From IMG/VR virus record IMGVR_UViG_3300017971_000275, positions 9,300-73,299 of that record: a DNA stretch of 64,000 nt, one strand, 5' to 3'. Below the pieces are notes generated by a model. That model saw only the letters and a program-made list of their open reading frames with translations. It did not search any database and had not been told where the DNA came from. The DNA comes from a virus. Both the position numbers and the translations under genes were made by a program. Of this stretch, positions 44,230 to 57,560 are shown one piece after another (the stretch's first letter is position 1; each line of letters opens with the position of its first letter).

Positions 44230-44251
44230 GATGAGCTCCTTGCAGAATGAG

Positions 44252-44305
44252 TTACCGTAAGAAGAACTGCCGGATCAAAAAGCGTTCAAACGTGCGTAAA
44301 GACAT
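44252..44305 (-). other. Putative leader peptide (uORF) MSLRTFERFLIRQFFLR
   Basis: AGGAG RBS; lies between the promoter and the HNH gene. Confidence 0.45.
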
Positions 44306-44324
44306 GTTGATCTCCTGTGCCTAT

Positions 44325-44353
44325 GTTATAAGCGGTGGGGCGGTCAGTGTCAA
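44325..44353 (-). promoter_or_regulatory. Sigma70-type promoter
   Basis: TTGACA-17 nt-TATAAC. Confidence 0.75.
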
Positions 44354-44360
44354 GTCTGAT

Positions 44361-44446
44361 TGCTCGCACCGGGAGTCGAACCCGGATAGGGACTAAGCCC
44401 CGGGGGATTTTAAGTCCCCTGTGTCTACCTACTTCACCATGCGAGC
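44361..44446 (-). tRNA. tRNA-Leu(TAA), long variable arm, no encoded CCA
   Basis: Cloverleaf: acceptor GCTCGCA/TGCGAGC, anticodon arm GGGGA-CTTAAAA-TCCCC, T loop TTCGACT. Confidence 0.93.
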
Positions 44447-44453
44447 ATAGTAG

Positions 44454-44651
44454 CTACTCATCAAGTATATGACGGTCCAAACGTTCTTTGGCAACCTCTT
44501 CTACCGATTCTCTGGTGACGTTGGGGTTCTCTATGTTGGCGTTGCCGAACGCGAAGCTGATCCTCTGCTCCTGCCGCTCCTCGTTGGTCATCGGCCGTTT
44601 GGAGAGCTCCTCAGCTTTTTTATACAGCTCCTCTTCAGAACGACGTGTCAT
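44454..44651 (-). CDS. Small hypothetical protein
   Basis: MT.EER.EQRISFAFGNANIENP.VTR motif; RBS. Confidence 0.6.
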   Translation of the reverse strand: MTRRSEEELYKKAEELSKRPMTNEERQEQRISFAFGNANIENPNVTRESVEEVAKERLDRHILDE

Positions 44652-44802
44652 TCCTCTTCCTCCCAGGTGCCTTCGTCAACCTGCTTGACTACAAAATCCA
44701 CAAACCAATTGGGGACCTCGCAGGCGCCCGAGCTTGTGGTGTAAGGTATGAGCTCATTGGACATGACTCCGTAAAGCTCCAGAATAGAATCAGCTGCGCT
44801 GC

Positions 44803-45051
44803 TCAAGCTTCGCTCCTAGTATTATGCGTCTCCTGCTTCCACGACCACTCTCCGGTGCGAGGGTCCCATTCACTTTTGCATTTTCGGCAACGCAAAAATC
44901 CACTGAGCACCTGCAGCTTCTCATGACATCTATTGCACACTGTTGGCGCATCACCATCCAGGAATCTGTTTATCACCTCAGTAAGGAGTTCTACCTCTAA
45001 ATGAAGATGTATCACAACGGTTTCGTTGTCGTGCCTACCGACCAAGCTCAT
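44803..45051 (-). CDS. Small Zn-ribbon protein
   Basis: CxxC...CxxC. Confidence 0.5.
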   Translation of the reverse strand: MSLVGRHDNETVVIHLHLEVELLTEVINRFLDGDAPTVCNRCHEKLQVLSGFLRCRKCKSEWDPRTGEWSWKQETHNTRSEA

Positions 45052-45194
45052 TATACACCCCTTCTACCCCAATCCAGGTCTGAAGTATCGGTTGCCGTCG
45101 TGGTCCACGGATACCGTGGCGACGCCTATGACCTTGTTTTCTTCGTTGATACTTTGCAGCGTTACCGCCTGCCCGTAATGGAGATCTGTGTGGC

Positions 45195-45608
45195 CTATGC
45201 TCTTTTCAACAAGCTCGGGGTCAAACACGTACTCGCCCCACTTGGATTTTTCTCTTCATCCACAAAAACCACAGGCCGGTACTTTGGGTTGAAGCGACCC
45301 GCTACCTCACGAAGCAAAACCTGCACGACCCCGTCAAGCCGTTGTATTTCCTCTGCCATGGCAGTAAGAGTTTCAGATACCTTTGTTGGGAAGTCTTGCA
45401 TGGGGACGTAATCGAGGTCCGCCCTGTAGTTGGCTATATGCGGTCCGACACCATCCCAGCTGTAACTCCTACCACCATCACTATCGTCCAGGTACGAGCC
45501 ACAGCCCAAGCAAACGTAACCATGCCTCAGGCGAAACCACTCCGCATCCCGCGTATTGTTGGAACAGTGCCAACAAGGCTCAGGCTCTTTTTTGTTCTGT
45601 TCGCTCAT
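45195..45608 (-). CDS. Zn-ribbon hypothetical protein
   Basis: CWHC...CLGC. Confidence 0.55.
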   Translation of the reverse strand: MSEQNKKEPEPCWHCSNNTRDAEWFRLRHGYVCLGCGSYLDDSDGGRSYSWDGVGPHIANYRADLDYVPMQDFPTKVSETLTAMAEEIQRLDGVVQVLLREVAGRFNPKYRPVVFVDEEKNPSGASTCLTPSLLKRA

Positions 45609-45832
45609 GGGTTTTTCCTGGGAAATTTTCTTATGAGATCAAACCAGCTGTGCGTAAGGACAGGAGAGCCACAAACTGGGCAGAGTGGCCTGGACTCACC
45701 AGCTTCGTAGTCCTCGTCTGAGGCGAGAGTATGGTCGTAGCAGACACAGCAGAAATACACACTGACATCAGTCGCGTTTGCTGTGTTCGTGACGTCAACG
45801 TCGTCTGAGCATAGCATTTTAGGTTCACTCAT
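45605..45832 (-). CDS. Small Zn-ribbon protein
   Basis: CCVC...CPVCG; AGGAG RBS. Confidence 0.55.
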   Translation of the reverse strand: MSEPKMLCSDDVDVTNTANATDVSVYFCCVCYDHTLASDEDYEAGESRPLCPVCGSPVLTHSWFDLIRKFPRKNP

Positions 45833-45847
45833 GCAGAAACTCCTTTA

Positions 45848-45921
45848 TGCTGCTGGTGAGAGTCGAACTCACAACATCTCGATTTTGAGTCGAGCGCCTC
45901 TGCCGATTGGGCCACAGCAGC
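45848..45921 (-). tRNA. tRNA-Leu(CAA), short variable loop
   Basis: GCTGCTG/CAGCAGC acceptor; CTCGA-CTCAAAA-TCGAG; T loop TTCGACT. Confidence 0.88.
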
Positions 45922-45925
45922 TTAT

Positions 45926-46009
45926 TGCTGGCGGAGGGACTCGAACCCCCACGGGATTTCTCCCACTGGATCCTAAATCCAGGGTGGCTACCAATTACAC
46001 CACGCCAGC
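45926..46009 (-). tRNA. tRNA-Leu(TAG), long variable arm
   Basis: GCTGGCG/CGCCAGC acceptor; CTGGA-TTTAGGA-TCCAG; T loop TTCGAGT. Confidence 0.93.
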
Positions 46010-46055
46010 TCATAAGTGTATTTTACAAGACCGCCTTCCACTGCCAACAACTGCC

Positions 46056-46095
46056 AAAACAAAAAGGGGGAGGAGCCCCGAAGAACTCCTCCCCC
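46056..46095 (-). terminator. Rho-independent terminator of the vWA/ARPP operon
   Basis: GGGGGAGGAG...CTCCTCCCCC stem followed by TTTTTGTTTT. Confidence 0.88.
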
Positions 46096-46124
46096 GAAAG
46101 GGCTTGGGTGGGACTATTCCCAAG

Positions 46125-47156
46125 CTAAATCTGGAACGCTCTGGTGAGCTTCCAGCCTTTGCGAGGATCCCATCCCTCAGACATTACCATCGACGCGTAC
46201 AGGATGCTATCCGTGTTCGTGTCCGAGGCGATCTGCCCGAAGAACTGGTCGTTGCGGATCGTGGTCAGTCTGGCGACAGTGCTCCGTCCCTGCTCTGTCT
46301 CCTTGTGGAAAGGAGTATCCAACAGATCGCGCACCTGCTTCCTGACTAGCTCATCCTGCTGCTGGTCGGCGCTCTCCAACGCGTCACACAAGGCGTCCAT
46401 GTTGGTGAGGTCATCTACCTGCAGAGGCGTTCTGGTCTTGAGAACCTTGTCCGCATCCTGCTTCTGGCGCGAAGCCATGATGGCAGCAGAACCGTAGCAA
46501 ACACGGACCAGTGGTTCCCATACAGATTTCCAGTACGCAGCTGAAGGAGCTCGCTCGACGCCAACCACGTTACCGCTGATCAGGATGATGGCACCAACCT
46601 GGTTGTCTACGATCTCGAACTCTGCGATGAACTGATCCAGCTCCTCGGCGAACTGCTGCATGTACTGCACCAGGTTCTGTGTGGAGCTCATACCAGATTG
46701 CGCAGAAAAGGAGCCGATGGACTGCCATAGCTTGTTGTACCGTCGATCCTTTCTCTTCTCCAACGCTGGACGACGCAAAGCCAGCGGCAGAATCAGCATC
46801 TTGTGCTGGTCCTCGCGAATGTAGCCACCCTGCGTAGCCTGGATGCACATGGCGTTGTCCCAGACCTCCCGTCCCTTCGGAGGAACGATACCAGCGGTTG
46901 CCATCGCATGGTCCTGCGCTGCCTGCTTGACAACGTAACCAACATGTGTTGGCAGCAGAACTGGCTTGCCCGAAGGGTTCGAGAAGACCATTTCTCCGTA
47001 GTTGCGCGTCCCGACGCGGACCACGTCTGGATTCTCGAAGCGGTCATCCTGTAGATCTTCATCGAGGATCAACGGAATCACCTGCATCACACCGACCGTC
47101 TGGATGCGCCCGACTTCGCAACCGCGAAGGATTTCTTTGATCGTTAGAGGCTGCAT
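46125..47156 (-). CDS. ARPP-like (DUF6569/ARPP family) domain protein
   Basis: Q.VG.M.VIPL, NYG...F.N, Q.H........V...C(I)Q..QGG, LW..I, FE....QVGAI..I.G...G.E pattern recognised from memory of the family. Confidence 0.65.
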   Translation of the reverse strand: MQPLTIKEILRGCEVGRIQTVGVMQVIPLILDEDLQDDRFENPDVVRVGTRNYGEMVFSNPSGKPVLLPTHVGYVVKQAAQDHAMATAGIVPPKGREVWDNAMCIQATQGGYIREDQHKMLILPLALRRPALEKRKDRRYNKLWQSIGSFSAQSGMSSTQNLVQYMQQFAEELDQFIAEFEIVDNQVGAIILISGNVVGVERAPSAAYWKSVWEPLVRVCYGSAAIMASRQKQDADKVLKTRTPLQVDDLTNMDALCDALESADQQQDELVRKQVRDLLDTPFHKETEQGRSTVARLTTIRNDQFFGQIASDTNTDSILYASMVMSEGWDPRKGWKLTRAFQI

Positions 47157-47157
47157 A

Positions 47158-49278
47158 TTACACCTCCTGCTGCAGCTCGTCCATCGGACGTTGTAGTACA
47201 GCCGCAGCCTGCTGACCGAGTTTCGTGTACAGGACGTAGTCTGTGCTTCGACCTGCTTTCTTGACTAGCCTACGGCGCCTTAGCGCTTCGACTGTCTGTG
47301 GCCTCACGCCAGCACCGCGGTAGTTGATTTTCCCGTCGACCTGGACTCTGTCCATATCAACGAGAGCATCGCGCATCGTCGGAGAGAGCTCACCGACAAC
47401 GTCAAGTAGACGCTGCGTTACTGCCACCGAACGTCGCCGTCGTGGCTTGGGCAGCTCCACCTTAGGCGCCTGGAGCGCCTTCTGGCCCTGCCGCAGCAGC
47501 GCACGCAGACCGTTGAGCGGATCCTGCTCCAACGCTTCACGTAGAAGCGCAGTCCCGAAAGACTTGGGATCCTGCACAGGCATCGTCGGGATCACCCCTG
47601 AAGCCAATGAGCGCACCGAAGCAGTCTCCGCAGCAGACACAGGGTTCAGGTGGTAGATGGGCGTCGAAACCCCCATCTGCCTGATGGCCCGGACAGTCTC
47701 AGCGAAACGTCCAGCTGGGGTGTTGTCGTAACCATCGCTGATCACGTACACCGCAGACGGACGGTGATCGCGCATCGCTTTGGCCAGCGGCAACGCCAAC
47801 GAGGTGTCCCCCGATGGACGTACCAGCCTACCACTGCGCTTACCACCAACCAGAACCCGACGGGCTCCTGCAGCTTGTAGCATGTCGCTCAGCGCCAAAG
47901 CAGATGCCATTGGACGAAGCTTCTGCGTCTCATCTCCAGACATCGAGCCTGAGGCGTCGACGATGACCACTGCATCAGAGCAGTCGAACGGCAGCAACGT
48001 GGCTGCCTGCTCAGCTTTCTCATCCAGCACATCGCGAATCTCCGCCGTCATCCCACGCTCGTAAGCGTAGACGTACAGCTTGATCGCGTCGTAGCGCTTC
48101 GGATCAAAGTCAGCCTTCGCCCCAGCTCGCTGCAGGCGCCGCTGGTGCTTGATCTTCTGCCCGTCAGTGAGCGCCTTCGTCTTCGACGTCAGACGCAATA
48201 CGTCGTCATGTGAGCGATCCTTGTGGAACACAGACCGGATACCTTCCAGAACTTCTGGGGGCAGGTTGCGTCCATCACGCAGGTCGTCACGCGCGTTGAC
48301 GTAAGCCTTCAGGAGCGGAACCGTCCACGACTCTTCTGTGCTACCCAGCACAAACGCGACACACTGGCTGACGTGCCCTCGGTCGTTGTCGGTGTAGGCC
48401 CACACGTGATCGTTGAGGATCCCGCGCTCTTTTTGCGTCCAGTGACGCTTACGGCAAATGCTGGCCACCATTGAAGCGGCGCGCTTACCCCACGCGTGCT
48501 GGAGCGCCCGACGCATCTTCCGGCGGTACTTGACAGCCCACCAGTCGAGCTTATCGGACCCCAAGATTGAGGTCAGGATCACCCGGCGCGTACGCTTATT
48601 GTTGCAGCCCGACTGATGCAGCATCTCGAAGAGCTGGAACATACGCGGAGCGGTAACCGCATTGACCAGGGCGGTGATGAGCTCGCGCTCACGCTGCAGG
48701 TCATACTGCGTAGGACGTCCCACTCCTGGCCACTCCAACAGCATCCACGCGGCCAGCTTACGTGCGTTGTCCGTCAAACCTGACAGGCACGACAGCAATC
48801 CGTAGGCGCCGCGGTCGATACTGAACATCGCGGCGTGCGCCAGCTTCTCGGCGCGCTGCTGGTCTTCCTTGGTGTTGTAGTGCGTTGCCCGGTTCATACC
48901 AGTCGTCGCCTGATCCAAGTAAGACGCCACTACGCGTCCAACGATCCGCTGCTCGCGCGGGTTGAGGTTTACTCTATCACCGCGCAATAGTTTCTTGGCG
49001 AGGCCAGGAACCTCTGGGATCGCGTAGCGCTCGCAGAAAATGCGGTTGCTGGTGCACTTATTGTACACCTTGTCCGCATCGGCTTGGTCTGGAACGATGT
49101 AACCGTCCAGTAGCCTACCGTTGGGACCAGGAACTGCTTTGAGTCCCGGCTCCACGGACAAGCCGAGCTTGAGCCCGAACTTGCGCCCGCGCTCGCTGCC
49201 GTCGATGAACAACACGTGAGAGGTGGACTTCGCCCCCAGCTCACGGCGCAACTTGGTCGTTTGTAGTCCCTTACGCAT
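47158..49278 (-). CDS. Divergent TROVE/Ro60-like protein with vWA domain
   Basis: vWA MIDAS DASGSMS, G.TSLA, ISDGYDN; large basic helical region upstream; adjacent Y-RNA-like array; start MRKGL (track ORF to 49299). Confidence 0.6.
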   Translation of the reverse strand: MRKGLQTTKLRRELGAKSTSHVLFIDGSERGRKFGLKLGLSVEPGLKAVPGPNGRLLDGYIVPDQADADKVYNKCTSNRIFCERYAIPEVPGLAKKLLRGDRVNLNPREQRIVGRVVASYLDQATTGMNRATHYNTKEDQQRAEKLAHAAMFSIDRGAYGLLSCLSGLTDNARKLAAWMLLEWPGVGRPTQYDLQRERELITALVNAVTAPRMFQLFEMLHQSGCNNKRTRRVILTSILGSDKLDWWAVKYRRKMRRALQHAWGKRAASMVASICRKRHWTQKERGILNDHVWAYTDNDRGHVSQCVAFVLGSTEESWTVPLLKAYVNARDDLRDGRNLPPEVLEGIRSVFHKDRSHDDVLRLTSKTKALTDGQKIKHQRRLQRAGAKADFDPKRYDAIKLYVYAYERGMTAEIRDVLDEKAEQAATLLPFDCSDAVVIVDASGSMSGDETQKLRPMASALALSDMLQAAGARRVLVGGKRSGRLVRPSGDTSLALPLAKAMRDHRPSAVYVISDGYDNTPAGRFAETVRAIRQMGVSTPIYHLNPVSAAETASVRSLASGVIPTMPVQDPKSFGTALLREALEQDPLNGLRALLRQGQKALQAPKVELPKPRRRRSVAVTQRLLDVVGELSPTMRDALVDMDRVQVDGKINYRGAGVRPQTVEALRRRRLVKKAGRSTDYVLYTKLGQQAAAVLQRPMDELQQEV

Positions 49279-49353
49279 GGCGGGTGTCCCTTTCTGCACT
49301 GGTGAGAGTGCAAGTAATAATGTGTGGCCTTAATAAAAGCGGCCAGCAGATAC

Positions 49354-49382
49354 TTTATAAACAGTCGGTATGTCGTTGTCAA
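49354..49382 (-). promoter_or_regulatory. Sigma70-type promoter of the vWA/ARPP operon
   Basis: TTGACA-17 nt-TATAAA. Confidence 0.8.
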
Positions 49383-49390
49383 GTGTCAAG

Positions 49391-49783
49391 CGTACCACTA
49401 ACACGTGCGTGTGGAGCGCTTGCCGTGCCAGCAGGAGGCAGACAACACCGATTCGTACCACCCACACGTACGTTGGAAGCATATAGCATGGCAGCGACGT
49501 CCTTGCTGGACATGAACGTACCATCCACACATAGGTGGGAAGCACGAAGAGCTGGGCCGGCAGGTCTTCCAGAGGCAGCGTACCATCCACACATACGTGG
49601 GAAGCATCTATAGCCAGGAGGGCCAGTCCGTCGATCGCGGCGTACCACCCACACGTGCGTAGGGAGCACGTACTGTCTGCTTACCCCTAGGCAATGCCTG
49701 CAAGTACCACCCACACGTACATGGGAAGCGCTCAGCGCGTGGGCAGGGCCACAAGCCGGGGCTACGTACCACCCACATGCGTG
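49391..49783 (-). CRISPR. Degenerate CRISPR array: 6 full and 1 partial 29-nt repeats (consensus GTGCTTCCCACGTACGTGTGGGTGGTACG, type I-E-like) and 6 spacers of 33-34 nt
   Basis: Repeats start (+ coordinates) at 49391, 49454, 49517, 49579, 49641, 49703 and 49765; period 62-63 nt; spacers are unique. Confidence 0.88.
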
Positions 49784-51138
49784 TTGCCGAGCTTCGCAAC
49801 TCGGCTTTCCTGCTTCTTAGGCTCCGCTACCGGAGGTCCTCCACAGGCTGCTTTACCGCATGATCTGCGGCTGTTGAAATTTTTGATGTTCTTCGCAGCG
49901 TTGATGTCAGCGTTTTCTGTGTGGCCGCACTCAACGCACAAGAACACGTCTCTGGTTTTTCGGTTTTCCTTGGAAACATGCCCACACACGGAACACGCCT
50001 GCGACGTGTAGTGCGGTGGAACAAGGATCAGCTTGCCTCCTCGTTCTTTGAGCTTGTACTCCAGCATGGTCTCGAACATGCCCCAGCCTCTTTCCAAAAT
50101 GGAGCGGTTCAGACCGGACTTTTGTTTGACGTTTTTGCCGGGCTCTTCTTTCGTGCCCTTAGCGCTTTTCGTCATGTTTGCTATCTGTAGATCTTCCAGC
50201 ACCACCACACCGTAACGCTCCGCGTAGTAGTTCGATTCTTTGTGGAGGAGATCTCGCAGCATCCGACTTTTACGCTTCCTGAGGCGAGACAAGTTGGCTA
50301 CAGCTTTACGATGGTTAGCCGAGTGTCTTGTCTTCAAACACTTCTTCTTGCGCTTCTTCTTAACCTTTTTTGTGTCGGTATCTATTTGGCGCACTGCCCG
50401 CTTGATGCGCTTTTCAATGGCAAAGTAGGCTTGCGGGAGCTCAACCAAACGACCGTCGCTGTCTGCGATCAAGTATTTGACGCCGCGGTCGATTCCCACG
50501 ATGGGAATATCTTTTTCCGCTGGTGTTGGAATCTCCAGTACGTAAGAGCACGACGCGTACCACTTACCAGCCTCAAGACAGATCGTACATCGACGCAAGG
50601 ATTTAAATTCCGGCATACGATGAGTTTTTGTGCGGATGTACCCTAAGCTTCTCCCGTAAACATAGATCATGCCATCAAGGAGCTTCCACGCAGAAGCTCC
50701 GAAAATGCCGATACCGACCGGTCTATTACGCCCTCGGAATTTTGGCTTACCTCCTCTACCTTCGTACCACGCGGTGAAAGCGCGGTTTACTGCTTCGACG
50801 ATCAAGATCATCGCGGCGCGCGGAACTCCTTTAAAGAAGTCCATTTTGCGGATCTCGGTGAGCTGCGCTGACATGCCCCGGCTAGCGTGCTGGAAGAATT
50901 CCTTCCAGCCCCGCTTCTTGGGATCCATCTCGATGCCCACCTGACGGTAAGCGTTGGTTAGCAGTCCTTCGTCATCGTAGCGCGTAGCCCGACGATGCGC
51001 ATACATAAACCGGTGCTCCAGCACTACGTTGTAAAGTACGCGTAGGCGCCATTCCCAGTCGCGCAGGATTTCTTCCTGTTGGGGTGTTGGATAAATGCGG
51101 TAACGAGTAGCGCGTTCCAGTTTGAGCTTCTCGCTCAT
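49762..51138 (-). CDS. tnpB: TnpB / Cas12f-like RNA-guided nuclease
   Basis: N-terminal YRIYPT..Q; RuvC-I GIDRG, RuvC-II VLEDL, Zn finger CSVC...CVEC, RuvC-III NADINAAKNI; all three catalytic residues intact; no tnpA nearby. Confidence 0.93.
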   Translation of the reverse strand: MSEKLKLERATRYRIYPTPQQEEILRDWEWRLRVLYNVVLEHRFMYAHRRATRYDDEGLLTNAYRQVGIEMDPKKRGWKEFFQHASRGMSAQLTEIRKMDFFKGVPRAAMILIVEAVNRAFTAWYEGRGGKPKFRGRNRPVGIGIFGASAWKLLDGMIYVYGRSLGYIRTKTHRMPEFKSLRRCTICLEAGKWYASCSYVLEIPTPAEKDIPIVGIDRGVKYLIADSDGRLVELPQAYFAIEKRIKRAVRQIDTDTKKVKKKRKKKCLKTRHSANHRKAVANLSRLRKRKSRMLRDLLHKESNYYAERYGVVVLEDLQIANMTKSAKGTKEEPGKNVKQKSGLNRSILERGWGMFETMLEYKLKERGGKLILVPPHYTSQACSVCGHVSKENRKTRDVFLCVECGHTENADINAAKNIKNFNSRRSCGKAACGGPPVAEPKKQESRVAKLGNTHVGGT

Positions 51139-51186
51139 GCGTAATGGTCCCCGGTAATGTGGTCCGCTTTTAGCGGACGGTAATAA

Positions 51187-51267
51187 ATCGAGGAAGTTTG
51201 AAGGTCGCGTGGTGAATGGTTTTCAAATGAGCGAAAAACTTCTGTAGCAACCTAAGCAGTCCTCGAT
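51187..51267 (-). ncRNA. Y-RNA-like unit A (conserved stem, no tRNA module)
   Basis: AUCGAGGA-CUGC-stem-UACAGAA...stem-CAAACU-UCCUCGAU. Confidence 0.6.
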
Positions 51268-51280
51268 ACTCGTAAATAGC

Positions 51281-51400
51281 TGGTGGAAATGTGAACGTCA
51301 AGTTTTGGTGAATTGCAGGACTCGAACCTGCGACCCTCTCGTTGATAGCGAGATGCTCATCCAACTGAGCTAAATTCTGTATTGACGTTGCCGTCCACCA
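51281..51400 (-). ncRNA. Y-RNA-like unit B with linear tRNA mimic (anticodon AUC, 5-bp acceptor + ACCA)
   Basis: UGGUGGA-CGGC-AACGUCAA-UACAGAA[D, anticodon and T arms]UUGACGUU-CACAUU-UCCACCA. Confidence 0.7.
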
Positions 51401-51403
51401 AAA

Positions 51404-51448
51404 TGGAGCGCTTGGGAATCGAACCCTATCGAGCCACCAGGGTGCTCC
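51404..51448 (-). ncRNA. tRNA minihelix-like element (acceptor + T arm only)
   Basis: GGAGCAC...GGG-UUCGAUU-CCC..GCGCUCC-A; no anticodon arm. Confidence 0.45.
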
Positions 51449-51451
51449 AGA

Positions 51452-51588
51452 AGAGGAAATGTGAAAGCAAAGAGAATGAGTTTTGAACTTCTCGGGCATA
51501 GAGAGCCCGAGCCTGGATTCGAACCAGGAACCTTTCGTTTTACGGACGAATGTTCTTCCAATTTTCTGTACTTGCTTTGCAGTCCTCT
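51452..51588 (-). ncRNA. Y-RNA-like unit C with tRNA mimic circularly permuted in the D loop (anticodon-position GUA)
   Basis: Order: GAAC, anticodon arm UUCGU-CCGUAAA-ACGAA, T arm CCUGG-UUCGAAU-CCAGG, closed acceptor CUCGGGC-loop-GCCCGAG, AA, GUUC. Confidence 0.75.
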
Positions 51589-51631
51589 ACATCGAATATC
51601 TGTTCACCGCATGAGCAGTGGTTGTTTTAGA

Positions 51632-51756
51632 TAGAGGAAATGTGACAGCAGCAATTCCCAATGAACTTCTCCCCGTTAAAAGCCGGGGAGCTTGGATTCG
51701 AACCAAGACCTATCACTTTGGAGGTGATTGTTCTGTACTTGCTGTGCAGTCCTCTA
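51632..51756 (-). ncRNA. Y-RNA-like unit D with tRNA-Trp(CCA) mimic circularly permuted in the D loop
   Basis: GAAC, AUCAC-CUCCAAA-GUGAU, CUUGG-UUCGAAU-CCAAG, CUCCCCG-loop-CGGGGAG, AA, GUUC-AUUGG. Confidence 0.78.
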
Positions 51757-51798
51757 CACCGTTTATCTGTTCGCCGCTTGCGCGACGGGTATTTTAAA

Positions 51799-51944
51799 TC
51801 GAGGAAGGGTATCGGTAGAAGATGGATTGTTTATCCACCGCATCAATAAGCGGTTGCCTTTACCAATTTGGCCACATCCCCCTAGTTGGGGATGCCAGGA
51901 CTTGAACCTGGAAAATTTTCCTGTACCTACCGATTAGTCCTCGA
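51799..51944 (-). ncRNA. Y-RNA-like unit E with class II tRNA mimic permuted between the variable arm and T arm
   Basis: T arm CCAGG-UUCAAGU-CCUGG, CAUCCCC-loop-GGGGAUG, D arm GCCAAAUUGGUAAAGGC, ACCGC-8 nt-GCGGU, variable hairpin GGAU/AUCC. Confidence 0.72.
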
Positions 51945-52106
51945 AAAATGATTTCTCCTCACGTTATCGTAGGCTTTAGCAGCCTGCGCTCTTGTTGTCT
52001 TGATGCCCTCTCGGGCTTGCGTCGCGATGATCGTCCGGATCATCAGCTCTCTACGTTGCGCCTCATTACTGAGGATCGAGCGGATGTCAAGGCGTCTTCG
52101 CGGCAT
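51927..52106 (-). CDS. Small 59-aa hypothetical protein (MPRRRLDIRSILSNEAQRRELMIRTIIATQAREGI...)
   Basis: Open frame translated by hand, shorter than any ORF in the track; AGGT RBS; lies between RNA units F and E. Confidence 0.5.
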   Translation of the reverse strand: MPRRRLDIRSILSNEAQRRELMIRTIIATQAREGIKTTRAQAAKAYDNVRRNHFSRTNR

Positions 52107-52121
52107 CTACCTAAAAATTAG

Positions 52122-52253
52122 TCGAGGAAATTCGAGAGTAAGAGGCGAAAGTAACAAGGAGCGGGATTTGAACCCGCGACCTTCGGTTTATAAGACCGAC
52201 GCTCAACCAACTGAGCTATCATTGTTGTTCTGTACTTACTCTGCCGTCCTCGA
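52122..52253 (-). ncRNA. Y-RNA-like unit F with linear tRNA-Ile(UAU)-like module
   Basis: UCGAGGA-CGGC-AGAGUAAG-UACAGAA[cloverleaf, UCGGU-CUUAUAA-ACCGA]CUUACUCU-CGAAUU-UCCUCGA. Confidence 0.72.
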
Positions 52254-52544
52254 AATCGTAAAGCTTGCTCCGTGGAGTTTTCCACCCACCCAGCCTAGCT
52301 CACCTTTTAAAGAGAGGGTGACCTTTGCTGTGTCTTCCTTGAGTGGCGGTAGCTCCTCAAGTGTTTCCATGATTATAGGCAGCAGGATTTCCCTGTCAAG
52401 CTTTTTGTCAACCACGGAGGCAAATTCTTCGAGAAAAATCTGCTCCGCTTGAGCAGCGAGCTTTTGCTGCTTACTTGACATTGTCACACTCATTTCTCCT
52501 ATGCTGCCAGTAGAACACAAATAAGTCCTTGACACCAACAGCAA
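52236..52544 (-). CDS. Hypothetical protein (start probably further downstream, near MSSKQ)
   Basis: Tiles the operon. Confidence 0.5.
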   Translation of the reverse strand: MLLVSRTYLCSTGSIGEMSVTMSSKQQKLAAQAEQIFLEEFASVVDKKLDREILLPIIMETLEELPPLKEDTAKVTLSLKGELGWVGGKLHGASFTISRTAE

Positions 52545-52710
52545 TACCTGCAGCTATGGCCGCCCACAGACCTGTGGAAGTATCCTCTCCCGGCCATAAC
52601 GTTGGGCGGAGCAGCAGGAAAAAGACGAAGCCACTGCAGACCCCGAGGAGCGCGGTGAACACGATCGTCAGTAAGCGCAGCTGCCATTTATACTGAGCTG
52701 TTGTTCCCAT
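52471..52710 (-). CDS. Small 2-TM membrane protein
   Basis: Two hydrophobic helices; paralogue of the next gene (SGF..FLL.RP..WP). Confidence 0.6.
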   Translation of the reverse strand: MGTTAQYKWQLRLLTIVFTALLGVCSGFVFFLLLRPTLWPGEDTSTGLWAAIAAGIAVGVKDLFVFYWQHRRNECDNVK

Positions 52711-52915
52711 TTTTCCGCTGCTCCCAGTAGTCCCACCAAGTCGTCACAGAAAAGAAGAGCACTCCAAGACCTACCCAAAGCCAGAAAATCAAGAATGTAG
52801 AACGAGTAGGCCAAACAAAAGGGCGCACCAATAAAAAGATGAGGAAGCCGCTTACGGAGGCGACGGTAGCTCGAATGAGGTTGCAGAACACCGCTTTCCG
52901 GAAGCTATCCGACAT
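52688..52915 (-). CDS. Small 2-TM membrane protein
   Basis: Two hydrophobic helices. Confidence 0.6.
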   Translation of the reverse strand: MSDSFRKAVFCNLIRATVASVSGFLIFLLVRPFVWPTRSTFLIFWLWVGLGVLFFSVTTWWDYWEQRKNGNNSSV

Positions 52916-52921
52916 GGTTGC

Positions 52922-53188
52922 TTACTCCAGTGAAGGAGGAGTAGCGAGCCTCTGCAATCGCTCGTCACCTTCATTACCTTGCAGCCACTCTTGGTAGTAG
53001 ATGTGTTGAGGTATCTCCTCCCAATTGACTGCGCTGTCCTCATCGGTGCCCACTGGCTGGAAGTTGACGTTGCTTGGAGACTCACCCACCAAGCACGGGT
53101 TGAAGAACCCGGTGGTCTCTACCTGCGCCAAGATGTGCATAACCTGCCCACCACTATGGCGATAGAACTTGCCGACCTCGAATTGCAT
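52922..53188 (-). CDS. Hypothetical protein (SH3-like, EVGKFYRH)
   Basis: GGAGG RBS. Confidence 0.6.
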   Translation of the reverse strand: MQFEVGKFYRHSGGQVMHILAQVETTGFFNPCLVGESPSNVNFQPVGTDEDSAVNWEEIPQHIYYQEWLQGNEGDERLQRLATPPSLE

Positions 53189-53241
53189 GGACGCCTCCGT
53201 GTATGCATGGTAGTTATCTTTCCCTAGGAGGATTTCTATCC

Positions 53242-53769
53242 ATGCGAAAAATTATCAAGTTCCGCGGCAAAAAGTACCACGCGGCTACGCTTGCCGATAT
53301 TCAGGATCGCGACGATTTCATCGGTTTACATTGTCAAGCTCGACCACGCGCTAGCATTGACCAAGAGGATACCATCGGTAGCGGGCAAGGCCAAGGAAAA
53401 TACGGCTACGGTAGCTACGTACCTGAAATCCTCGACTCGCTTTCCTTTGATCTCCGCGACATCGCCCTCGAAAAAGGTTGGATGGAAAATCCTCCCGGTG
53501 AGTACGACGACGGCTACGAGGACTGGCTCGACGAAGTCTACGATTTCCTCGATGACCATGGCATCAAGTGGATCTTCGTCAGCGAGAACAAACCTCTCAC
53601 CGATTACGGAGATTACTGCTACGGCATCCTCCTTCCCGATAAAGCGGTGCTCACGGTCATCCCCGACATCGGAGTGGACGACGCAGCCAATGCGTACGTG
53701 TACAACGCCAACGTCGCTATTCCTTCAGTGGTGGAGATTGATGAGGAGGAGCTGGAGCAGTACTACTAG
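53242..53769 (+). CDS. Acidic protein with the shared head motif; possible ADP-ribosyltransferase fold
   Basis: AGGAGG RBS; IKFRGKKYHAA; GLH...IFVS...YG pattern. Confidence 0.5.
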   Translation: MRKIIKFRGKKYHAATLADIQDRDDFIGLHCQARPRASIDQEDTIGSGQGQGKYGYGSYVPEILDSLSFDLRDIALEKGWMENPPGEYDDGYEDWLDEVYDFLDDHGIKWIFVSENKPLTDYGDYCYGILLPDKAVLTVIPDIGVDDAANAYVYNANVAIPSVVEIDEEELEQYY

Positions 53770-54007
53770 CTTCTTCCTCGTCGAGCTCTAGCCTCCAGCC
53801 CCCAAGCGCGATCACCTCTCCGTACTCATTGGTAGCCAGCTTCTGCACCGACCCGCAGTTTAAGCAGACAGCTTCCAATCCGCGCTTGCGGTACCGGAAT
53901 CGTAGATGTTTGCAGTCTGCAGCTCTAGCACGCTTCTCCAATGAAGTAAGGCGACGCCCTTTCATCGAGCGCGTCTTTCTCCGCGTACCACGAAACGACT
54001 GCCCCAT
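53717..54007 (-). CDS. Small basic Zn-binding protein
   Basis: CKH...CLNC...GGWRL; similar to 10207..10485. Confidence 0.5.
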   Translation of the reverse strand: MGQSFRGTRRKTRSMKGRRLTSLEKRARAADCKHLRFRYRKRGLEAVCLNCGSVQKLATNEYGEVIALGGWRLELDEEEASSTAPAPPHQSPPLKE

Positions 54008-54345
54008 TACTCTACCATCCGATCGTACGCCAGCATAGCTCCGCTACGCTCCGTATCGAACACTACGAAGTCTAGCCCCTCGCAGTTGGCAGCGGCGCTC
54101 TTATGGTGATCCAATACCACAAGCTTGTTGGCGAGTTCGTTGATCTTCAACAGCTCTTCACGCGGATAGCTAAAATCCACGATCCACACATCACGGTCTT
54201 TTACGAGCTCAGGAGCTGGCGGATCATCGCCATACTGAGCATCTAGGAGCTCTCCACCACTCAACCCGGTGTGTAGAATAAGAGCTCCGCAAATCCCGTC
54301 GCTACAGCCTTGATGATGAATGATTAATGGCTCTCTTGTATCCAT
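54007..54345 (-). CDS. DHH-family phosphoesterase, N-terminal domain only (truncated)
   Basis: HH.GC.DG, VDFSY, LDHHK, FD..RSGA motifs; stops before a DHHA1 domain. Confidence 0.75.
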   Translation of the reverse strand: MDTREPLIIHHQGCSDGICGALILHTGLSGGELLDAQYGDDPPAPELVKDRDVWIVDFSYPREELLKINELANKLVVLDHHKSAAANCEGLDFVVFDTERSGAMLAYDRMVE

Positions 54346-54387
54346 AAGTGTACACCTCCATCTGTACACCTATTTTACAAGATGGTT

Positions 54388-54460
54388 TGGGCACGCCGGG
54401 ATTCGAACCCGGAAATCTGCGGACTGAGCGCAGCGCCTTTGCCTGTTAGGCCACGTGCCC
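54388..54460 (-). tRNA. tRNA-Leu(CAG), short variable loop, atypical U37
   Basis: GGGCACG/CGTGCCC; CTGCG-CTCAGTC-CGCAG; CCGGG-TTCGAAT-CCCGG. Confidence 0.78.
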
Positions 54461-55183
54461 GTCTCCTCCTACATAAGAACGGTCAACAAAACTTGAGGAC
54501 TTCCCTAGCTTCTCCACAAGCACCTCATACATAGCCCGGTAGGGCATCGACCGCAATACACTTATCCTTATTATCCCGTATACGAGTATATTCCTTCTAT
54601 TAGAGGTTTTCTTCGGCGCGGCAATGGTGGGTTTCGTGAATTGTGTCCTTGGAATACCAGTCACTTCGGACCAGTAGTACTCTACCTCCGAGTAGCTTTT
54701 TCCATTGTTGAGATGCACTTTACTCACACAGCAAGATAAGTCTTCCTCAACCACCCCAAGAATATCCCGCACCCAAATTAAGAATAATCGAATCATGTCT
54801 GAATCCGAATTGGTAAAGCGTAATTCAGTGCCTCTTTTGCACCCCTCGGCCCAGTACAAAGCGGCCCCCACTAAAGCCAGGGATCTCTTATTTAAAGACA
54901 AACCCCTAAACTTGCGCTGAGCAGCCTCGAACCTACGTTGCCGTCGTTTCCTATAAAAGTTGGAATTTCCTATTGCCGCTGGTTTGTTCTCTGCAATCCC
55001 CCCTTCATTGGACATCTGATGCTTTAACCTCAACCGTTTCTGCTGTGATTTAGTCAAGGGAACATCCCTGAGCCACAAGGACAACGTGGATTTAGCTACA
55101 GGCACTTTTTCCAGTATTTCATTGTAGCTCAAGCCCGAACGCCGCAGCCTCACCGCTTCTGCCTTTGTCTCTTTTGTATGCAT
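54446..55183 (-). CDS. HTH + LAGLIDADG-like putative endonuclease
   Basis: LR..G.SY.EI...V.KSTLS.WL HTH; LYWAEG, FTNSD..MI..F..W, YWS...GIP motifs. Confidence 0.7.
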   Translation of the reverse strand: MHTKETKAEAVRLRRSGLSYNEILEKVPVAKSTLSLWLRDVPLTKSQQKRLRLKHQMSNEGGIAENKPAAIGNSNFYRKRRQRRFEAAQRKFRGLSLNKRSLALVGAALYWAEGCKRGTELRFTNSDSDMIRLFLIWVRDILGVVEEDLSCCVSKVHLNNGKSYSEVEYYWSEVTGIPRTQFTKPTIAAPKKTSNRRNILVYGIIRISVLRSMPYRAMYEVLVEKLGKSSSFVDRSYVGGDGHVA

Positions 55184-55233
55184 TTTATACCTCCAAGTAT
55201 ATCAGTAAGATAACTATACTTGAAGGTTCGATA

Positions 55234-55306
55234 TGCCCTCGCTCGGATTTGAACCGAGAAACCCGGATTCTTAGTCCGGTACCTTTGCCAGTTAGGTCAC
55301 GAGGAC
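55234..55306 (-). tRNA. tRNA-Leu(AAG), short variable loop
   Basis: GTCCTCG/CGAGGGC; CCGGA-CTAAGAA-TCCGG; CTCGG-TTCAAAT-CCGAG. Confidence 0.8.
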
Positions 55307-55411
55307 TCCTCTAGCCTAGTTGGGACACGTGGGCAGCCTACTTTCCCTAATTCAATTGTGTGGATGCGTGAAGGTATGTGACAGAAAAGGAGGGACTGTC
55401 AAGAACAAAAG

Positions 55412-55813
55412 CTACCGGAAATAAGGCGAGTCGAGCAACTCATCTTTCCCTTCCTGGCTGAGCTCGTTGTAGCGCTTTTGCGCGGCAAGAGAAACGAGCT
55501 CATTGACCAACGCTTCCCTATCGACCACCCGTTGGATCTGAAGGAAATCACTGAGAACTGCTCGCATCTCATCGTCGGAAGCTTGGTTCACTAGATGCGT
55601 AGCTGCAACCTCCAGATTCTGAAGCCAGCCTTTTACATCCAGCCTCTCATCGTTGAAGTTGTCCCTGCGGATCATCTCGTCTAGCCAGCTTTCCATAGAT
55701 GCCACCCGCAGGTAGGTGGCCCCACGAAACTTCACTGCAGGTGGAGGTGGATCTGGGGGTGGCCCTAAAGGGGGTTTGATAGGCCCACTCCACCATTTCT
55801 TTTTGTCGCCCAT
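55412..55813 (-). CDS. Probable head protein
   Basis: Motif PAVKFRGATYLRVA. Confidence 0.6.
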   Translation of the reverse strand: MGDKKKWWSGPIKPPLGPPPDPPPPAVKFRGATYLRVASMESWLDEMIRRDNFNDERLDVKGWLQNLEVAATHLVNQASDDEMRAVLSDFLQIQRVVDREALVNELVSLAAQKRYNELSQEGKDELLDSPYFR

Positions 55814-55818
55814 GCTAT

Positions 55819-56355
55819 TTATCTCCTCGGCAGGAAAAACTCGGCGTCAAGATAGACGAGTTCTTCGTCATCCTCATAGTCCTTATCGGCTTCCTCGTAG
55901 GCTTCCTCAACCATCAATCCAGGGTCAGCCAGCGTCACAGATTCCCAATCACTACCATCCCAGAATTCCAGTTCGTCCGGGTTGATGGAATCCTCAACGT
56001 AGTACGCTACCTCTCGCGCGTCACGGGAACCCACTTCATCCTCATGAAGATCTTCTAGGTTTTCGGTGCGTACACGCAGCACCACAGGATTCCACCCATC
56101 TTGCACTGGACGATCGGACTCGTTCTCGGCGATGTTCCCTAGGCGATCCATCCAAAAGGAAATCCCATTGTCGACCGTGAGGAAGATCTTGCGTTGAGAA
56201 TGTCCTTCGTAACCTCCACCAAAATTAGCTACGGAACCAGGAACCAAGCCGGATACGCTGATATTAGGAAGGCGGTTTAGGTAGGTAACGTGGTAGAGGT
56301 ATTCATCTGCCTCTGCCCGTACGTACACTTTACCTTTGTAGCGGATGCGCTGCAT
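55819..56355 (-). CDS. ADP-ribosyltransferase-fold (KptA/Tpt1-like) protein with the shared head motif
   Basis: YLYHVT....L..I...GL.P, IFLT, VVLRV, I.P..L; N-terminal IRYKGKVYVRA. Confidence 0.65.
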   Translation of the reverse strand: MQRIRYKGKVYVRAEADEYLYHVTYLNRLPNISVSGLVPGSVANFGGGYEGHSQRKIFLTVDNGISFWMDRLGNIAENESDRPVQDGWNPVVLRVRTENLEDLHEDEVGSRDAREVAYYVEDSINPDELEFWDGSDWESVTLADPGLMVEEAYEEADKDYEDDEELVYLDAEFFLPRR

Positions 56356-56399
56356 TTTAGTAGGATCTCCTAGCTAGAAGATAACCTACTTGAGCAGGA

Positions 56400-56774: not shown

Positions 56775-56853
56775 GACGAAATCCTTTTGATGGATTGAGT
56801 TGTGTCTACGTATTTTACAGTGCCGGAGGGGGAAGGAAAAGAGTAGCTGAAAA

Positions 56854-57204: not shown

Positions 57205-57256
57205 AGCTTTGTACTCCTTTTTGGTTTAATCTACGCTACGGTTAGAAGTAACTTTA

Positions 57257-57330
57257 TGGGCCCGCAGGGATTCGAACCCTGGATCTACCGGTTATGAGCC
57301 GGTGGCCTTCAACCACTAGGCTACGGGCCC
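57257..57330 (-). tRNA. tRNA with CAT anticodon (probably Ile2, otherwise Met)
   Basis: GGGCCCG/CGGGCCC; ACCGG-CTCATAA-CCGGT; CAGGG-TTCGAAT-CCCTG. Confidence 0.9.
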
Positions 57331-57557: not shown

Positions 57558-57560
57558 GAG

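What the first reader, a model, noticed from the sequence alone, without database searches (positions are those of the whole stretch)
49391..51138. TnpB whose omega-RNA-like 3' end is fused directly to a CRISPR array: possible TnpB-to-Cas12 intermediate on a phage
Seen in sequence: a TnpB with an intact RuvC D-E-D triad and no tnpA. Its 3' coding end carries omega-RNA-like elements (hairpin CCGC-AGAUCAU-GCGG, GCCUGUGGAG...GAAGCAGGAA, hairpin GCCGAGUU-GCGA-AGCUCGGC). Where an IS200/605 right end would normally lie, there is instead the 3' part of a CRISPR repeat (CACGCAUGUGGGUGGUACG), which encodes the last residues of the protein; the stop codon is the first triplet of spacer 1. Six more repeats follow on the same strand. 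The loop AUCAU (49860-49864) could pair with the conserved repeat segment (A/G)UGGU as a pseudoknot (only 5 bp, so weak evidence). Established: type V Cas12 nucleases arose repeatedly from TnpB associating with arrays. Inference: a minimal multi-guide system in which the scaffold acts like a tracrRNA.
Basis: partly seen in the sequence, partly recalled or inferred. Interest (0 to 1): 0.86.

Follow-up and report, generated by a model that had tools for sequence, protein, structure and literature searches.

The report
Phage TnpB nuclease joined to CRISPR array
A small transposon-type RNA-guided nuclease gene on a large-phage fragment runs straight into a short CRISPR-like array, and its relatives do the same, so it is probably one more case of a transposon nuclease turned into a mini CRISPR system.

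Summary
A 458-aa TnpB gene (49762-51138, minus strand) has an intact RuvC triad. Its 3' end carries a conserved omega-RNA scaffold. That scaffold passes without a gap into a partial repeat, a stop codon that begins spacer 1, and six more degenerate repeats.

This is not a one-off. The protein sits in a well-supported TnpB clade. In that clade, 6 of 14 assessable loci carry 27-29-nt repeat arrays just downstream on the same strand. Outside the clade, 0 of 198 loci do. At least two of the six are phage-borne.

- The repeats resemble type I-E CRISPR repeats more than they resemble omega-RNA terminal modules. That favours capture of an I-E-type array over duplication of omega-RNA.
- No anti-repeat stands out from shuffled controls, so a classical tracrRNA is not supported. 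The 5-bp pseudoknot does not discriminate cognate from non-cognate pairs.

No spacer target was found, and no RNA data exist.

The closest known systems are TranC, Cas12n and the phage Cas12r system. I file this as a new member of a known kind, of moderate interest. Its relatives form a useful natural series for asking how type V arrays arise.

The parts
49762..51138 (-). tnpB-like gene, 458 aa; RuvC residues D217 (50488-50490), E315 (50194-50196), D411 (49906-49908); zinc-finger cysteines within 49927-49995
   Evidence: ORF. Pfam. NCBIfam guided_TnpB scores 227 bits against a cut-off of 100. Invariant residues. The AlphaFold2 model is nearest to ISDra2 TnpB chain 8h1j, target TM-score 0.72.
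49786..49876 (-). omega-RNA-type scaffold inside the 3' end of the ORF: hairpin 1 (49856-49870), core helix (49807-49848), hairpin 3 (49786-49805)
   Evidence: Sequence. RNAalifold gives 17 pairs, 12 of them with compensatory change. The covariance model R1 hits this one place in the window at 82 bits, but the window sequence was a training member. The fold has z = -4.0, with 0 of 200 shuffles as stable. The protein tail it encodes, residues 423-458, has pLDDT of about 30.
49765..49785 (-). partial repeat copy fused to the scaffold (3' part of the repeat); encodes the last seven residues
   Evidence: In the column-by-column comparison of the fused copy with the six full repeats, the invariant positions lie almost wholly in the last 13 bases before the spacer.
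49730..49764 (-). spacer 1 (35 nt); begins with the TAG stop codon of tnpB
49391..49729 (-). six full repeats of 27 nt (29 nt if two semi-conserved bases are added) at 49703-49729, 49641-49667, 49579-49605, 49517-49543, 49454-49480 and 49391-49417, with spacers 2-6 (35-36 nt) between them
   Evidence: Pairwise identity among the repeats is 20-27 of 29. Repeats 1-4 fold into a small hairpin with a 3-nt free 3' tail.
49355..49390 (-). sequence after the last repeat (possible seventh guide, or simply the trailer and upstream region of the next gene)
   Evidence: By eye it holds promoter-like hexamers, but the consensus scan reported 0 promoter-like sites in 49150-51450.

Best explanation
This is a domesticated, phage-borne TnpB that works as the effector of a miniature type V-like CRISPR locus. 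It is of the same kind as the TranC, type V-U, Cas12n and Cas12r systems.

Proposed mechanism:
1. The gene and the array are read as one transcript from the minus strand.
2. The RNA scaffold encoded in the last ~90 nt of the ORF is bound by the protein, as an omega-RNA is.
3. In place of the canonical terminal stem-loop of the omega-RNA, the scaffold is followed by a repeat-derived handle and by spacer 1. This gives a ready-made guide in cis.
4. The six further units (repeat hairpin, then a conserved 3' handle, then a spacer) supply more guides. Probably the first ~16-20 nt of each spacer are used. These guides act either alone, as shown for Cas12r, or together with the scaffold in trans.
5. 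The target would be competing phages or other mobile elements, cut by the intact RuvC site.

On the origin and state of the array: the repeats are of the type I-E family. The array was therefore more likely captured, or built by a host I-E adaptation module, than made by duplication of omega-RNA. In this phage the repeats have drifted, so there has been no recent spacer uptake.

Shown: the anatomy, the conservation of the scaffold, the clade-wide linkage to arrays, and the I-E likeness of the repeats.
Inferred: transcription as one unit, loading of the guides, target cleavage, and the role in phage competition.
For: - Linkage. All loci with short-repeat arrays just downstream of tnpB fall in one clade: 24 rows with support 100, and 23 rows with support 100. 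That is 6 of 14 assessable distinct loci inside the clade (the window, L002, L004, L009, L027, L162). Outside it, 0 of 198 carry such repeats. The 2 of 198 that have any array have 36-37-nt repeats.
- Placement. The arrays are on the coding strand and start within about 300 nt of the stop codon.
- Missing right end. Clade members without arrays end in a terminal hairpin plus a short conserved tail. The window lacks that module and has the repeat handle there instead.
- Shared handle. In the window, L002 and L027, the handle at the scaffold end is the same as the 3' end of that locus's own repeats.
- Scaffold kept. It is conserved with compensatory changes (12 of 17 pairs) and is well folded.
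- Protein length. Up to the last RuvC residue, the protein is 408-418 residues in 4 of the 6 array-bearing loci (367 and 375 in L162 and L009), against 348-376 in 7 members without I-E-like arrays.
- Phage context. L004 lies between a phage holin gene and an amidase gene. The window is a virus record.
- No other cas genes. No Cas1 or CasE was found in the record. In the MAG holding L162, the repeat occurs only beside tnpB (5 of 5 matches) and no Cas1 was found.
- Precedent. The Cas12r preprint reports a working phage system of a TnpB-like nuclease with degenerate 29-bp repeats resembling type I-E repeats. Its crRNA is 26 nt of repeat plus 18 nt of spacer (passages and section 25 read).
Against: - The six repeats all differ from each other (20-27 of 29 identical), as in a decaying or inactive array.
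- No protospacer was found in 50,697 phage records or 72,556 plasmid records (only E = 5 matches), nor in the phage's own 73 kb (best non-self match 21-24 of 35-36).
- No anti-repeat was found. The best duplex in the locus is -29.6 kcal/mol, against shuffled repeats at -25.6 +/- 2.7 with a minimum of -32.9. The hairpin-1 region pairs with the seven copies no better than with 6-31% of shuffles (17 to 92 of 300).
- The pseudoknot does not discriminate cognate from non-cognate partners.
- No sigma-70-like promoter was scored in 49150-51450.
- The record is only about 21% complete, so absence of cas genes or a transposase is weak evidence.
- The trees are FastTree with local support only.
- Eight rows of the clade are proteins without DNA context. 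These include the three nearest relatives.
Confidence: 0.5

Rival explanations
1. The array is an orphan type I-E-type mini-array that the phage carries for use with the host's Cascade and Cas3. Virus-borne mini-arrays of this sort are known. The tnpB element merely sits next to it, by chance or because this IS lineage tends to land in or beside I-E repeats. The nuclease would use at most the first guide.
For: - The repeats resemble the E. coli K-12 type I-E repeat: 15 of 29 in register for the window consensus, reached by 8 of 1000 shuffles; 16 of 29 for L162, reached by 1 of 1000.
- They resemble that repeat more than the omega-RNA terminal modules of clade relatives: z = 1.7 to 5.6 against z = -1.3 to 2.2.
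- L004, L009, L027 and L162 have the 61-nt period typical of type I-E arrays.
- L004 has arrays on both sides of tnpB.
- L139, outside the clade, has I-E-like repeats just upstream of a tnpB, so chance adjacency does occur.
Against: - It does not explain why 6 of 14 loci of one clade, in at least three or four separate lineages, have the array on the coding strand right after the scaffold, while 0 of 198 other loci do.
- It does not explain why the canonical right-end module is missing, as it would not be after a simple insertion.
- It does not explain why L004 has scaffold-like modules in front of each of its three arrays.
- The exact repeat pattern was found in none of 185,579 species genomes.
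- No CasE or Cas1 was found in the record, though a host would supply them in trans.
Confidence: 0.15
2. The locus is a relic. The array is a decaying remnant that no longer supplies guides. The TnpB is either an immobilised, still open gene with one fixed guide (spacer 1) or has another role, such as regulation or homing within phage genomes.
For: - The repeats are degenerate: 69-93% pairwise identity.
- The last repeat is the most divergent.
- No targets were found.
- No partner transposase was found.
- The sequence is identical in two runs, so no spacer turnover is visible.
Against: - The ORF is open, with every catalytic and zinc-binding residue kept.
- The invariant positions of the repeat lie almost wholly in its last 13 bases before each spacer, and most of the 5' part varies. 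That is the pattern expected if the handle is under selection.
- Repeats 1-4 keep their hairpin through different sequences.
- The Cas12r arrays are also described as degenerate, yet they work.
Confidence: 0.2
3. Same function as the best explanation, but the opposite history. The fused scaffold-plus-half-repeat is secondary. On this reading a CRISPR-associated ancestor with a separate scaffold and array lost the spacer between them. That re-created an omega-RNA-like single guide in front of the array. It would not be a stage on the way from TnpB to Cas12.
For: - Altae-Tran et al. 2023 describe such a path for RpoE-linked TnpBs. There a half repeat fused with a tracrRNA, giving an omega-RNA with the same 3' end as the repeats (passage read).
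- In L162 and L009 the first full repeat stands about 50-60 nt after the scaffold. The fused state of the window is therefore not the general state of the clade.
Against: In L002, the closest relative with DNA, a 5'-divergent first copy stands 16 nt after hairpin 3. The near-fused arrangement may therefore be old in this sub-clade. No rooted analysis was done.
Confidence: 0.1

Closest known systems
TranC (transposon-CRISPR intermediates; Jin et al., Cell 2025)
   Same: - A TnpB-sized nuclease with a TnpB-like fold.
- A CRISPR array downstream of the gene.
- A guide RNA derived from the transposon right-end RNA.
- No adaptation genes.
- Members occur in phages: CauTranC9 in bioRxiv 10.64898/2026.03.27.714800 (passages read).
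   Different: - The Cell paper is not in the library. I know it only from citing passages and from recall.
- TranC repeats reported in the preprint are 32-38 bp. Here they are 27-29 nt and resemble type I-E repeats.
- A tracrRNA with an anti-repeat was identified for two TranC clades. None was found here.
- LaTranC is only a distant sequence match (E = 6e-9).
- I could not test whether this clade is one of the numbered TranC clades, because supplements are closed.
Cas12n (type V-U4 / V-N)
   Same: - It is the best solved-structure sequence match: RdCas12n chain 9j09, E = 9e-32.
- Cas12n has a disordered C-terminal tail, and its tracrRNA region overlaps the ORF (passage of PMC12216341). The same layout is seen here: the scaffold is in the ORF and the tail has pLDDT of about 30.
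   Different: - The match covers only residues 180-420.
- Cas12n has expanded REC and WED domains and is about 500 aa or more. This protein is 458 aa, and its fold is nearest to TnpB.
- Cas12n uses an anti-repeat tracrRNA.
Cas12r-CRISPR of Thermus Lalka phages (bioRxiv 10.64898/2026.04.20.719267)
   Same: [quoted passage not shown]
- The repeats share elements with the host type I-E repeat.
- Spacers are 32-33 bp.
- There are no adaptation genes, and host I-E adaptation is proposed.
   Different: - Cas12r is 564 aa and is reported to come from a thermophile-only TnpB branch.
- It needs no tracrRNA, and no scaffold in the ORF is described.
- I could not compare sequences: no Lalka record appeared among the 40 listed of 110 phage records matched.
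Canonical IS200/IS605 TnpB with omega-RNA (ISDra2)
   Same: - Domain set, catalytic residues and fold.
- An omega-RNA scaffold overlaps the 3' end of the gene. The same scaffold model hits the 3' end of tnpB 60 times in 81 sources and 47 times in 80 sources.
   Different: - No TnpA was found.
- The canonical terminal stem-loop and right end are absent.
- Seven guide units are present instead of one.

Membership tests
TnpB (RNA-guided nuclease of IS200/IS605-type elements) | Matches the family profiles above their cut-offs | tested here: met
   Pfam OrfB_IS605 scores 44.9 bits (cut-off 30.5), the TNB domain 86.9 (26.3) and the HTH domain 29.7 (21). NCBIfam guided_TnpB scores 227 bits against a cut-off of 100.
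TnpB (RNA-guided nuclease of IS200/IS605-type elements) | RuvC D-E-D triad and zinc finger; compact TnpB fold | tested here: met
   D217, E315, D411 and four cysteines are invariant. Foldseek's best matches are 8h1j and 8iaz, with target TM-scores of 0.72 and 0.70. The model's mean pLDDT is 72.
TnpB (RNA-guided nuclease of IS200/IS605-type elements) | Omega-RNA scaffold overlapping the 3' end of the gene | tested here: met
TnpB (RNA-guided nuclease of IS200/IS605-type elements) | Transposon context: partner TnpA and a complete right end | tested here: not met
   No Y1 transposase or serine recombinase was found in the 73-kb record, which is a fragment. The terminal hairpin and tail seen in clade members L008, L022, L023, L053, L107 and L110 are absent.
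CRISPR-associated TnpB (type V-U / TranC) | CRISPR array next to the gene, downstream, on the same strand | tested here: met
CRISPR-associated TnpB (type V-U / TranC) | Association with arrays is conserved among relatives | tested here: met
   6 of 14 assessable loci in the clade, against 0 of 198 outside it with such repeats.
CRISPR-associated TnpB (type V-U / TranC) | tracrRNA with an anti-repeat that pairs with the repeat | tested here: inconclusive
   No duplex exceeds the shuffled controls. The hairpin-1 region pairs marginally, with 17-92 of 300 shuffles as good.
CRISPR-associated TnpB (type V-U / TranC) | Array-derived guides are loaded and direct cleavage | not testable with these tools
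   No RNA run holds the locus.
CRISPR-associated TnpB (type V-U / TranC) | Falls in a published V-U branch or TranC clade | not testable with these tools
   The reference sets are in supplements, which are closed, and in a paper that is not held.
Cas12n | Full-length homology with expanded REC and WED domains | tested here: not met
   The match to 9j09 covers only residues 180-420. The length is 458 aa. The fold is nearest to TnpB.
Type I-E CRISPR array | 29-nt repeat with an internal hairpin and a short 3' handle; likeness to a reference I-E repeat | tested here: met
   The hairpin is shown. The window consensus shares 15 of 29 bases with the E. coli K-12 repeat, reached by 8 of 1000 shuffles.
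Type I-E CRISPR array | 61-nt period, near-identical repeats, adjacent cas genes | tested here: not met
   The period is 62-63 nt. Repeats share 20-27 of 29 bases. No Cas1 or CasE was found in the record.

The most novel reading that the evidence does not exclude
In this TnpB clade, the terminal stem-loop and handle of the omega-RNA can be swapped for a type I-E CRISPR repeat. Phage-borne TnpBs have therefore repeatedly attached themselves to I-E-type arrays and let the host's class 1 adaptation machinery load guides for a class 2-like nuclease.

On this reading the loci are natural snapshots of how a type V array is acquired:
- the window: scaffold fused to a half repeat;
- L002: two repeats;
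- L023: two terminal modules in tandem;
- L027: three tandem omega-RNA halves followed by nine repeats;
- L004: three arrays, each with its own mini-scaffold.

The route would be capture, not duplication of omega-RNA.
Probability: 0.25. Interest if true: 0.8.

Novelty: new member of a known kind. Interest (0 to 1): 0.55.

Why it matters
How type V CRISPR arrays arose from transposon guide RNAs is still argued. Altae-Tran et al. 2023 leave two routes open: serial duplication of omega-RNA segments, or insertion beside an existing array (passages read).

This locus and its relatives bear on that question directly:
- The nuclease is still an ordinary TnpB by sequence and fold.
- The omega-RNA scaffold is still in place.
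- The guide-proximal module has been replaced by a repeat that resembles type I-E repeats.
- Sister loci show several different ways in which scaffold and array are joined.

If the system works, it is also a very small multi-guide nuclease (458 aa) carried by a phage. It would be a second example, after Cas12r, of a phage nuclease that may depend on host type I-E adaptation.

Tried and rejected
- Spacer 1 as a relic of the lost terminal hairpin. The MAFFT alignment suggested this. On testing, only one of seven terminal modules (L110) scored high (11; 7 of 500 shuffles), and spacer 4 scored the same against L107. Rejected as chance.
- Pseudoknot covariation. Loop and tail pairs of 4-5 bp exist in each locus, but the cross-table of non-cognate pairs gives similar lengths. 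Not usable as evidence.
- Anti-repeat search over 49786-51400 and the trailer, and for the hairpin-1 region alone. Nothing exceeded the shuffles.
- Rfam scan of 44000-62000. It found only tRNAs and chance-level hits, with no CRISPR repeat family and no omega-RNA family.
- Tandem Repeats Finder does not report the array, as expected when spacers differ.
- Protospacers. None in the phage or plasmid collections. None in the record itself.
- Repeat pattern in 185,579 species genomes: 0 hits.
- Close relatives in IMG/VR using the single protein: 99 pattern matches, none confirmed.
- Isolate phage records. 110 records matched. The best is at most 30% identical over 87% or more of the query, and 37.5% over 63%.
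- Sequencing runs. No RNA holder is listed. Two DNA holders, which may be the source, show no difference and no joints in the array.
- Promoter and terminator scan: 0 promoter-like sites and 3 terminator-like sites, against 2.4 expected.
- The covariance model R1 was run on the window and on L002-L161 only, not on L162-L247. It gave no hit at E <= 0.01 in L004, L009 or L027, whose scaffolds are divergent.
So the contigs of the nearest homologues, P0002 to P0005, could not be read.
- Supplements of the TnpB/Cas12, TranC and Cas12r papers could not be seen. They may already list this clade.
Full report
**What is there**

The window is bases 9300-73299 of a 73,299-bp IMG/VR virus record that CheckV rates about 21% complete. 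It is probably a piece of a large phage.

On the minus strand, an ORF at 49762-51138 encodes 458 aa. It has the Pfam domains HTH_OrfB_IS605, OrfB_IS605 and Cas12f1-like TNB. NCBIfam places it in guided_TnpB (227 bits, cut-off 100). It stays far below the cut-offs of the CRISPR-specific models C2c8 (141 against 350) and Cas12f2 (82 against 450).

D217, E315, D411 and four zinc-finger cysteines are invariant in the alignment with the six nearest homologues.

An AlphaFold2 model built on a ten-row alignment has a mean pLDDT of 72. Residues 423-458 score about 30. Foldseek puts the model nearest to ISDra2 TnpB (8h1j, target TM-score 0.72) and ISFba1 TnpB, followed by Cas12f chains.

By sequence, the best solved relative is RdCas12n (9j09, E = 9e-32). 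That match covers only residues 180-420. ISDra2 TnpB scores 4e-14 and LaTranC 6e-9.

No Y1 transposase, serine recombinase, Cas1 or CasE was found in the record. Because the record is a fragment, these absences are weak evidence.

**The RNA part**

Nine full elements from the clade were aligned. RNAalifold predicts 17 pairs, and 12 of them keep pairing through changes on both sides in at least one sequence.

A covariance model of the scaffold (A4, R1) matches the 3' end of tnpB 60 times in 81 sources and 47 times in 80 sources. It matches once in the window. The window sequence was a training member, so its 82 bits are partly by construction.

The 118-nt unit 49765-49882 folds at -46.9 kcal/mol, against -34.4 +/- 3.1 for shuffles. 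That gives z = -4.0, with 0 of 200 shuffles as stable.

The disordered protein tail and the conserved RNA helices together indicate that this stretch is kept for its RNA. The same is described for TnpB and for Cas12n (passage of PMC12216341).

**The array**

- Hairpin 3 ends at 49786.
- A 21-nt copy of the 3' part of the repeat follows directly (49765-49785).
- The TAG stop codon comes next and opens spacer 1 (49730-49764).
- Six full repeats follow, separated by five further spacers of 35-36 nt, down to 49391.

Read as 29 nt, the six repeats share 20-27 of 29 bases pairwise. In a column comparison that includes the fused copy, the invariant positions lie almost wholly in the last 13 bases before the spacer.

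Repeats 1-4 fold into a small hairpin with three free 3' bases.

Two public runs hold the stretch without any difference. Either may be the source, and only contigs were available.

**Relatives**

The nearest proteins in the large protein collection are 56%, 48% and 53% identical (P0002, P0003, P0004). They sit on contigs I could not read.

Scans with alignments returned the best 80 loci from each collection:
- metagenome contigs: 509 relatives found;
- IMG/VR: 229 relatives found;
- species genomes: 582 relatives found.

In a FastTree of 169 rows, the window falls in a 24-row clade with support 100. In a second tree of 119 rows, a 23-row clade with support 100 holds every locus with a short-repeat array right after tnpB.

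The array-bearing loci are:
- the window;
- L002, the closest relative with DNA at 42% identity: two repeats 60 nt apart, the first starting 16 nt after hairpin 3;
- L004: 23 repeats in three arrays with period 61;
- L009: three repeats;
- L027: nine repeats, preceded by three tandem copies of the 3' half of the omega-RNA;
- L162, a gammaproteobacterial MAG: five repeats with period 61.

Counting distinct loci with at least 300 nt downstream, that is 6 of 14 in the clade. Outside the clade, 198 loci were assessable and 26 were too short. Two of the 198 have arrays, both with 36-37-nt repeats and period 66. None has the short repeats.

By my own hypergeometric arithmetic, 6 of 14 against 0 of 198 has a probability near 3e-8. 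This ignores relatedness. The six loci sit in at least three or four separate lineages of the clade.

Clade members without arrays (L008, L022, L023, L053, L107, and L110 before its separate 36-nt repeats) end in a terminal hairpin and a short conserved tail, as an IS right end does.

L004 is phage DNA too. A holin gene lies between its first two arrays, and an amidase gene follows the third. In front of each of its arrays stands a promoter-like stretch and a small scaffold-like module.

In the MAG holding L162, the repeat occurs only beside tnpB (5 of 5 matches) and no Cas1 was found. That MAG is 1.3 Mb and incomplete.

**What kind of repeat**

I fetched the E. coli K-12 array between iap and cas2 and compared it in register.
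- The window consensus shares 15 of 29 bases with that type I-E repeat (8 of 1000 shuffles reach this).
- L162 shares 16 of 29 (1 of 1000).
- L004 scores 19 with gaps (2 of 1000).
- L027 shares 14 of 29 (27 of 1000).

I then set the repeats of the six array-bearing loci against the last 30 nt of six canonical omega-RNAs of the clade. They score z = -1.3 to 2.2 there, and z = 1.7 to 5.6 against the E. coli repeat.

So the repeats are better described as type I-E-family repeats than as copies of the omega-RNA end. L004, L009, L027 and L162 also have the 61-nt period of type I-E arrays. The window has 62-63 nt.

Of the two routes left open in print, this favours capture of an existing array over serial duplication of omega-RNA (Altae-Tran et al. 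2023, passages read).

**How scaffold and guides might meet**

Comparable 4-5-bp pairings exist in other loci. But loops and tails from different loci pair about as well, so I give it no weight.

A scan of the locus for an anti-repeat gave a best duplex of -29.6 kcal/mol. Shuffled repeats gave -25.6 +/- 2.7, with a minimum of -32.9.

The minimum-energy fold pairs the hairpin-1 region with the fused half repeat. Tested alone against all seven copies, that region does better than the shuffled mean each time, yet 17 to 92 of 300 shuffles do as well.

A classical tracrRNA is therefore not supported. The Cas12r preprint shows that a phage TnpB-like nuclease can work with crRNAs alone, made of 26 nt of a 29-bp I-E-like repeat plus 18 nt of spacer (section 25 read). 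In the window, however, the scaffold is clearly kept. A role for it in cis for spacer 1, and perhaps in trans for the rest, remains the most economical reading.

**Targets and activity**

I found no protospacer in the phage or plasmid collections or in the record itself. No RNA run holds the locus. Function is therefore inferred, not shown.

**Comparison with what is known**

- About 50 independent links of TnpB with arrays have been inferred (PMC12669027, passage). These include 40 V-U branches (PMC10691335).
- TranC systems are described as TnpB-derived intermediates with a right-end RNA split into tracrRNA and crRNA. I know this from citing passages, because the Cell paper itself is not held.
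- A phage TranC is reported.
- Cas12n keeps its tracrRNA inside the ORF.
- Cas12r pairs a phage TnpB-like nuclease with degenerate I-E-like repeats.
- A myxophage Cas12m array whose repeat is 58% identical to the host I-E repeat is also reported.

The present locus combines features of these systems:
- a protein that is still TnpB by every test made here;
- an intact omega-RNA scaffold in the ORF;
- I-E-like repeats;
- direct fusion of scaffold and first unit.

I could not check whether its clade is already numbered in the published sets.

**Verdict**

- It is most likely a functional or recently functional mini type V-like system on a phage (confidence 0.5).
- The rivals are an unrelated I-E mini-array (0.15), a relic (0.2), and the same system with the opposite evolutionary direction (0.1).
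- It is a new member of a known kind. Its main interest lies in the series of related loci that show different joins between omega-RNA and array.

Noticed in passing
window 51170-52300 (minus strand): The region next to tRNA-Asp (51307-51379; ARAGORN gives the unusual anticodon atc) and tRNA-Ile (52151-52226) holds tRNA-like pieces that score just under Rfam's tRNA cut-off: 51512-51572 at 26.6 bits and 51691-51739 at 26.0 bits. It also holds five copies of a 38-nt module, of which two extend to 76 nt. These could be degenerate or split tRNA genes with a shared flank.
   Followed up: no
window 44360-60461: Nine tRNA genes all lie on the minus strand. Five of them are tRNA-Leu with different anticodons. 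A set this large fits a large phage.
   Followed up: no
window 46125-49299 (minus strand): Directly after the array lie two genes. One is a 713-aa protein with a weak VWA/CoxE match (E = 5e-4, below the cut-off). The other is a 343-aa ARPP-1/ARPP-2 protein (E = 1e-35). I recall this as a pair typical of conflict systems. Its relation to the array is unknown.
   Followed up: no
L004:1000-5100: A phage lysis region has three arrays of I-E-like repeats (6, 8 and 9 copies; period 61) around a holin gene, a tnpB gene and an amidase gene. Each array is preceded by a promoter-like stretch and a small scaffold-like module. One spacer is duplicated, at 2611-2732.
   Followed up: partly
L027:4400-5220: Three tandem copies of about 55 nt of the omega-RNA 3' half (spacing 88 and 73 nt) follow the gene. 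The first two end in the same handle as the nine 29-nt repeats that come after them.
   Followed up: partly
L023:3012-3230 (same as L102): A canonical omega-RNA end is followed, about 45 nt later, by a second terminal hairpin with the same tail. This is either a two-unit proto-array or the remnant of a second element.
   Followed up: no
L110:4285-4484: In a 297-kb IMG/VR contig, a clade member with a complete canonical right end is followed by three 36-nt repeats of another kind, with a hairpin near the 3' end and spacing of 72-76 nt.
   Followed up: no
L139:2497-2654: Outside the clade, three I-E-like repeats lie just upstream of a tnpB gene. This shows that tnpB next to such arrays can also arise in other ways.
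   Followed up: no
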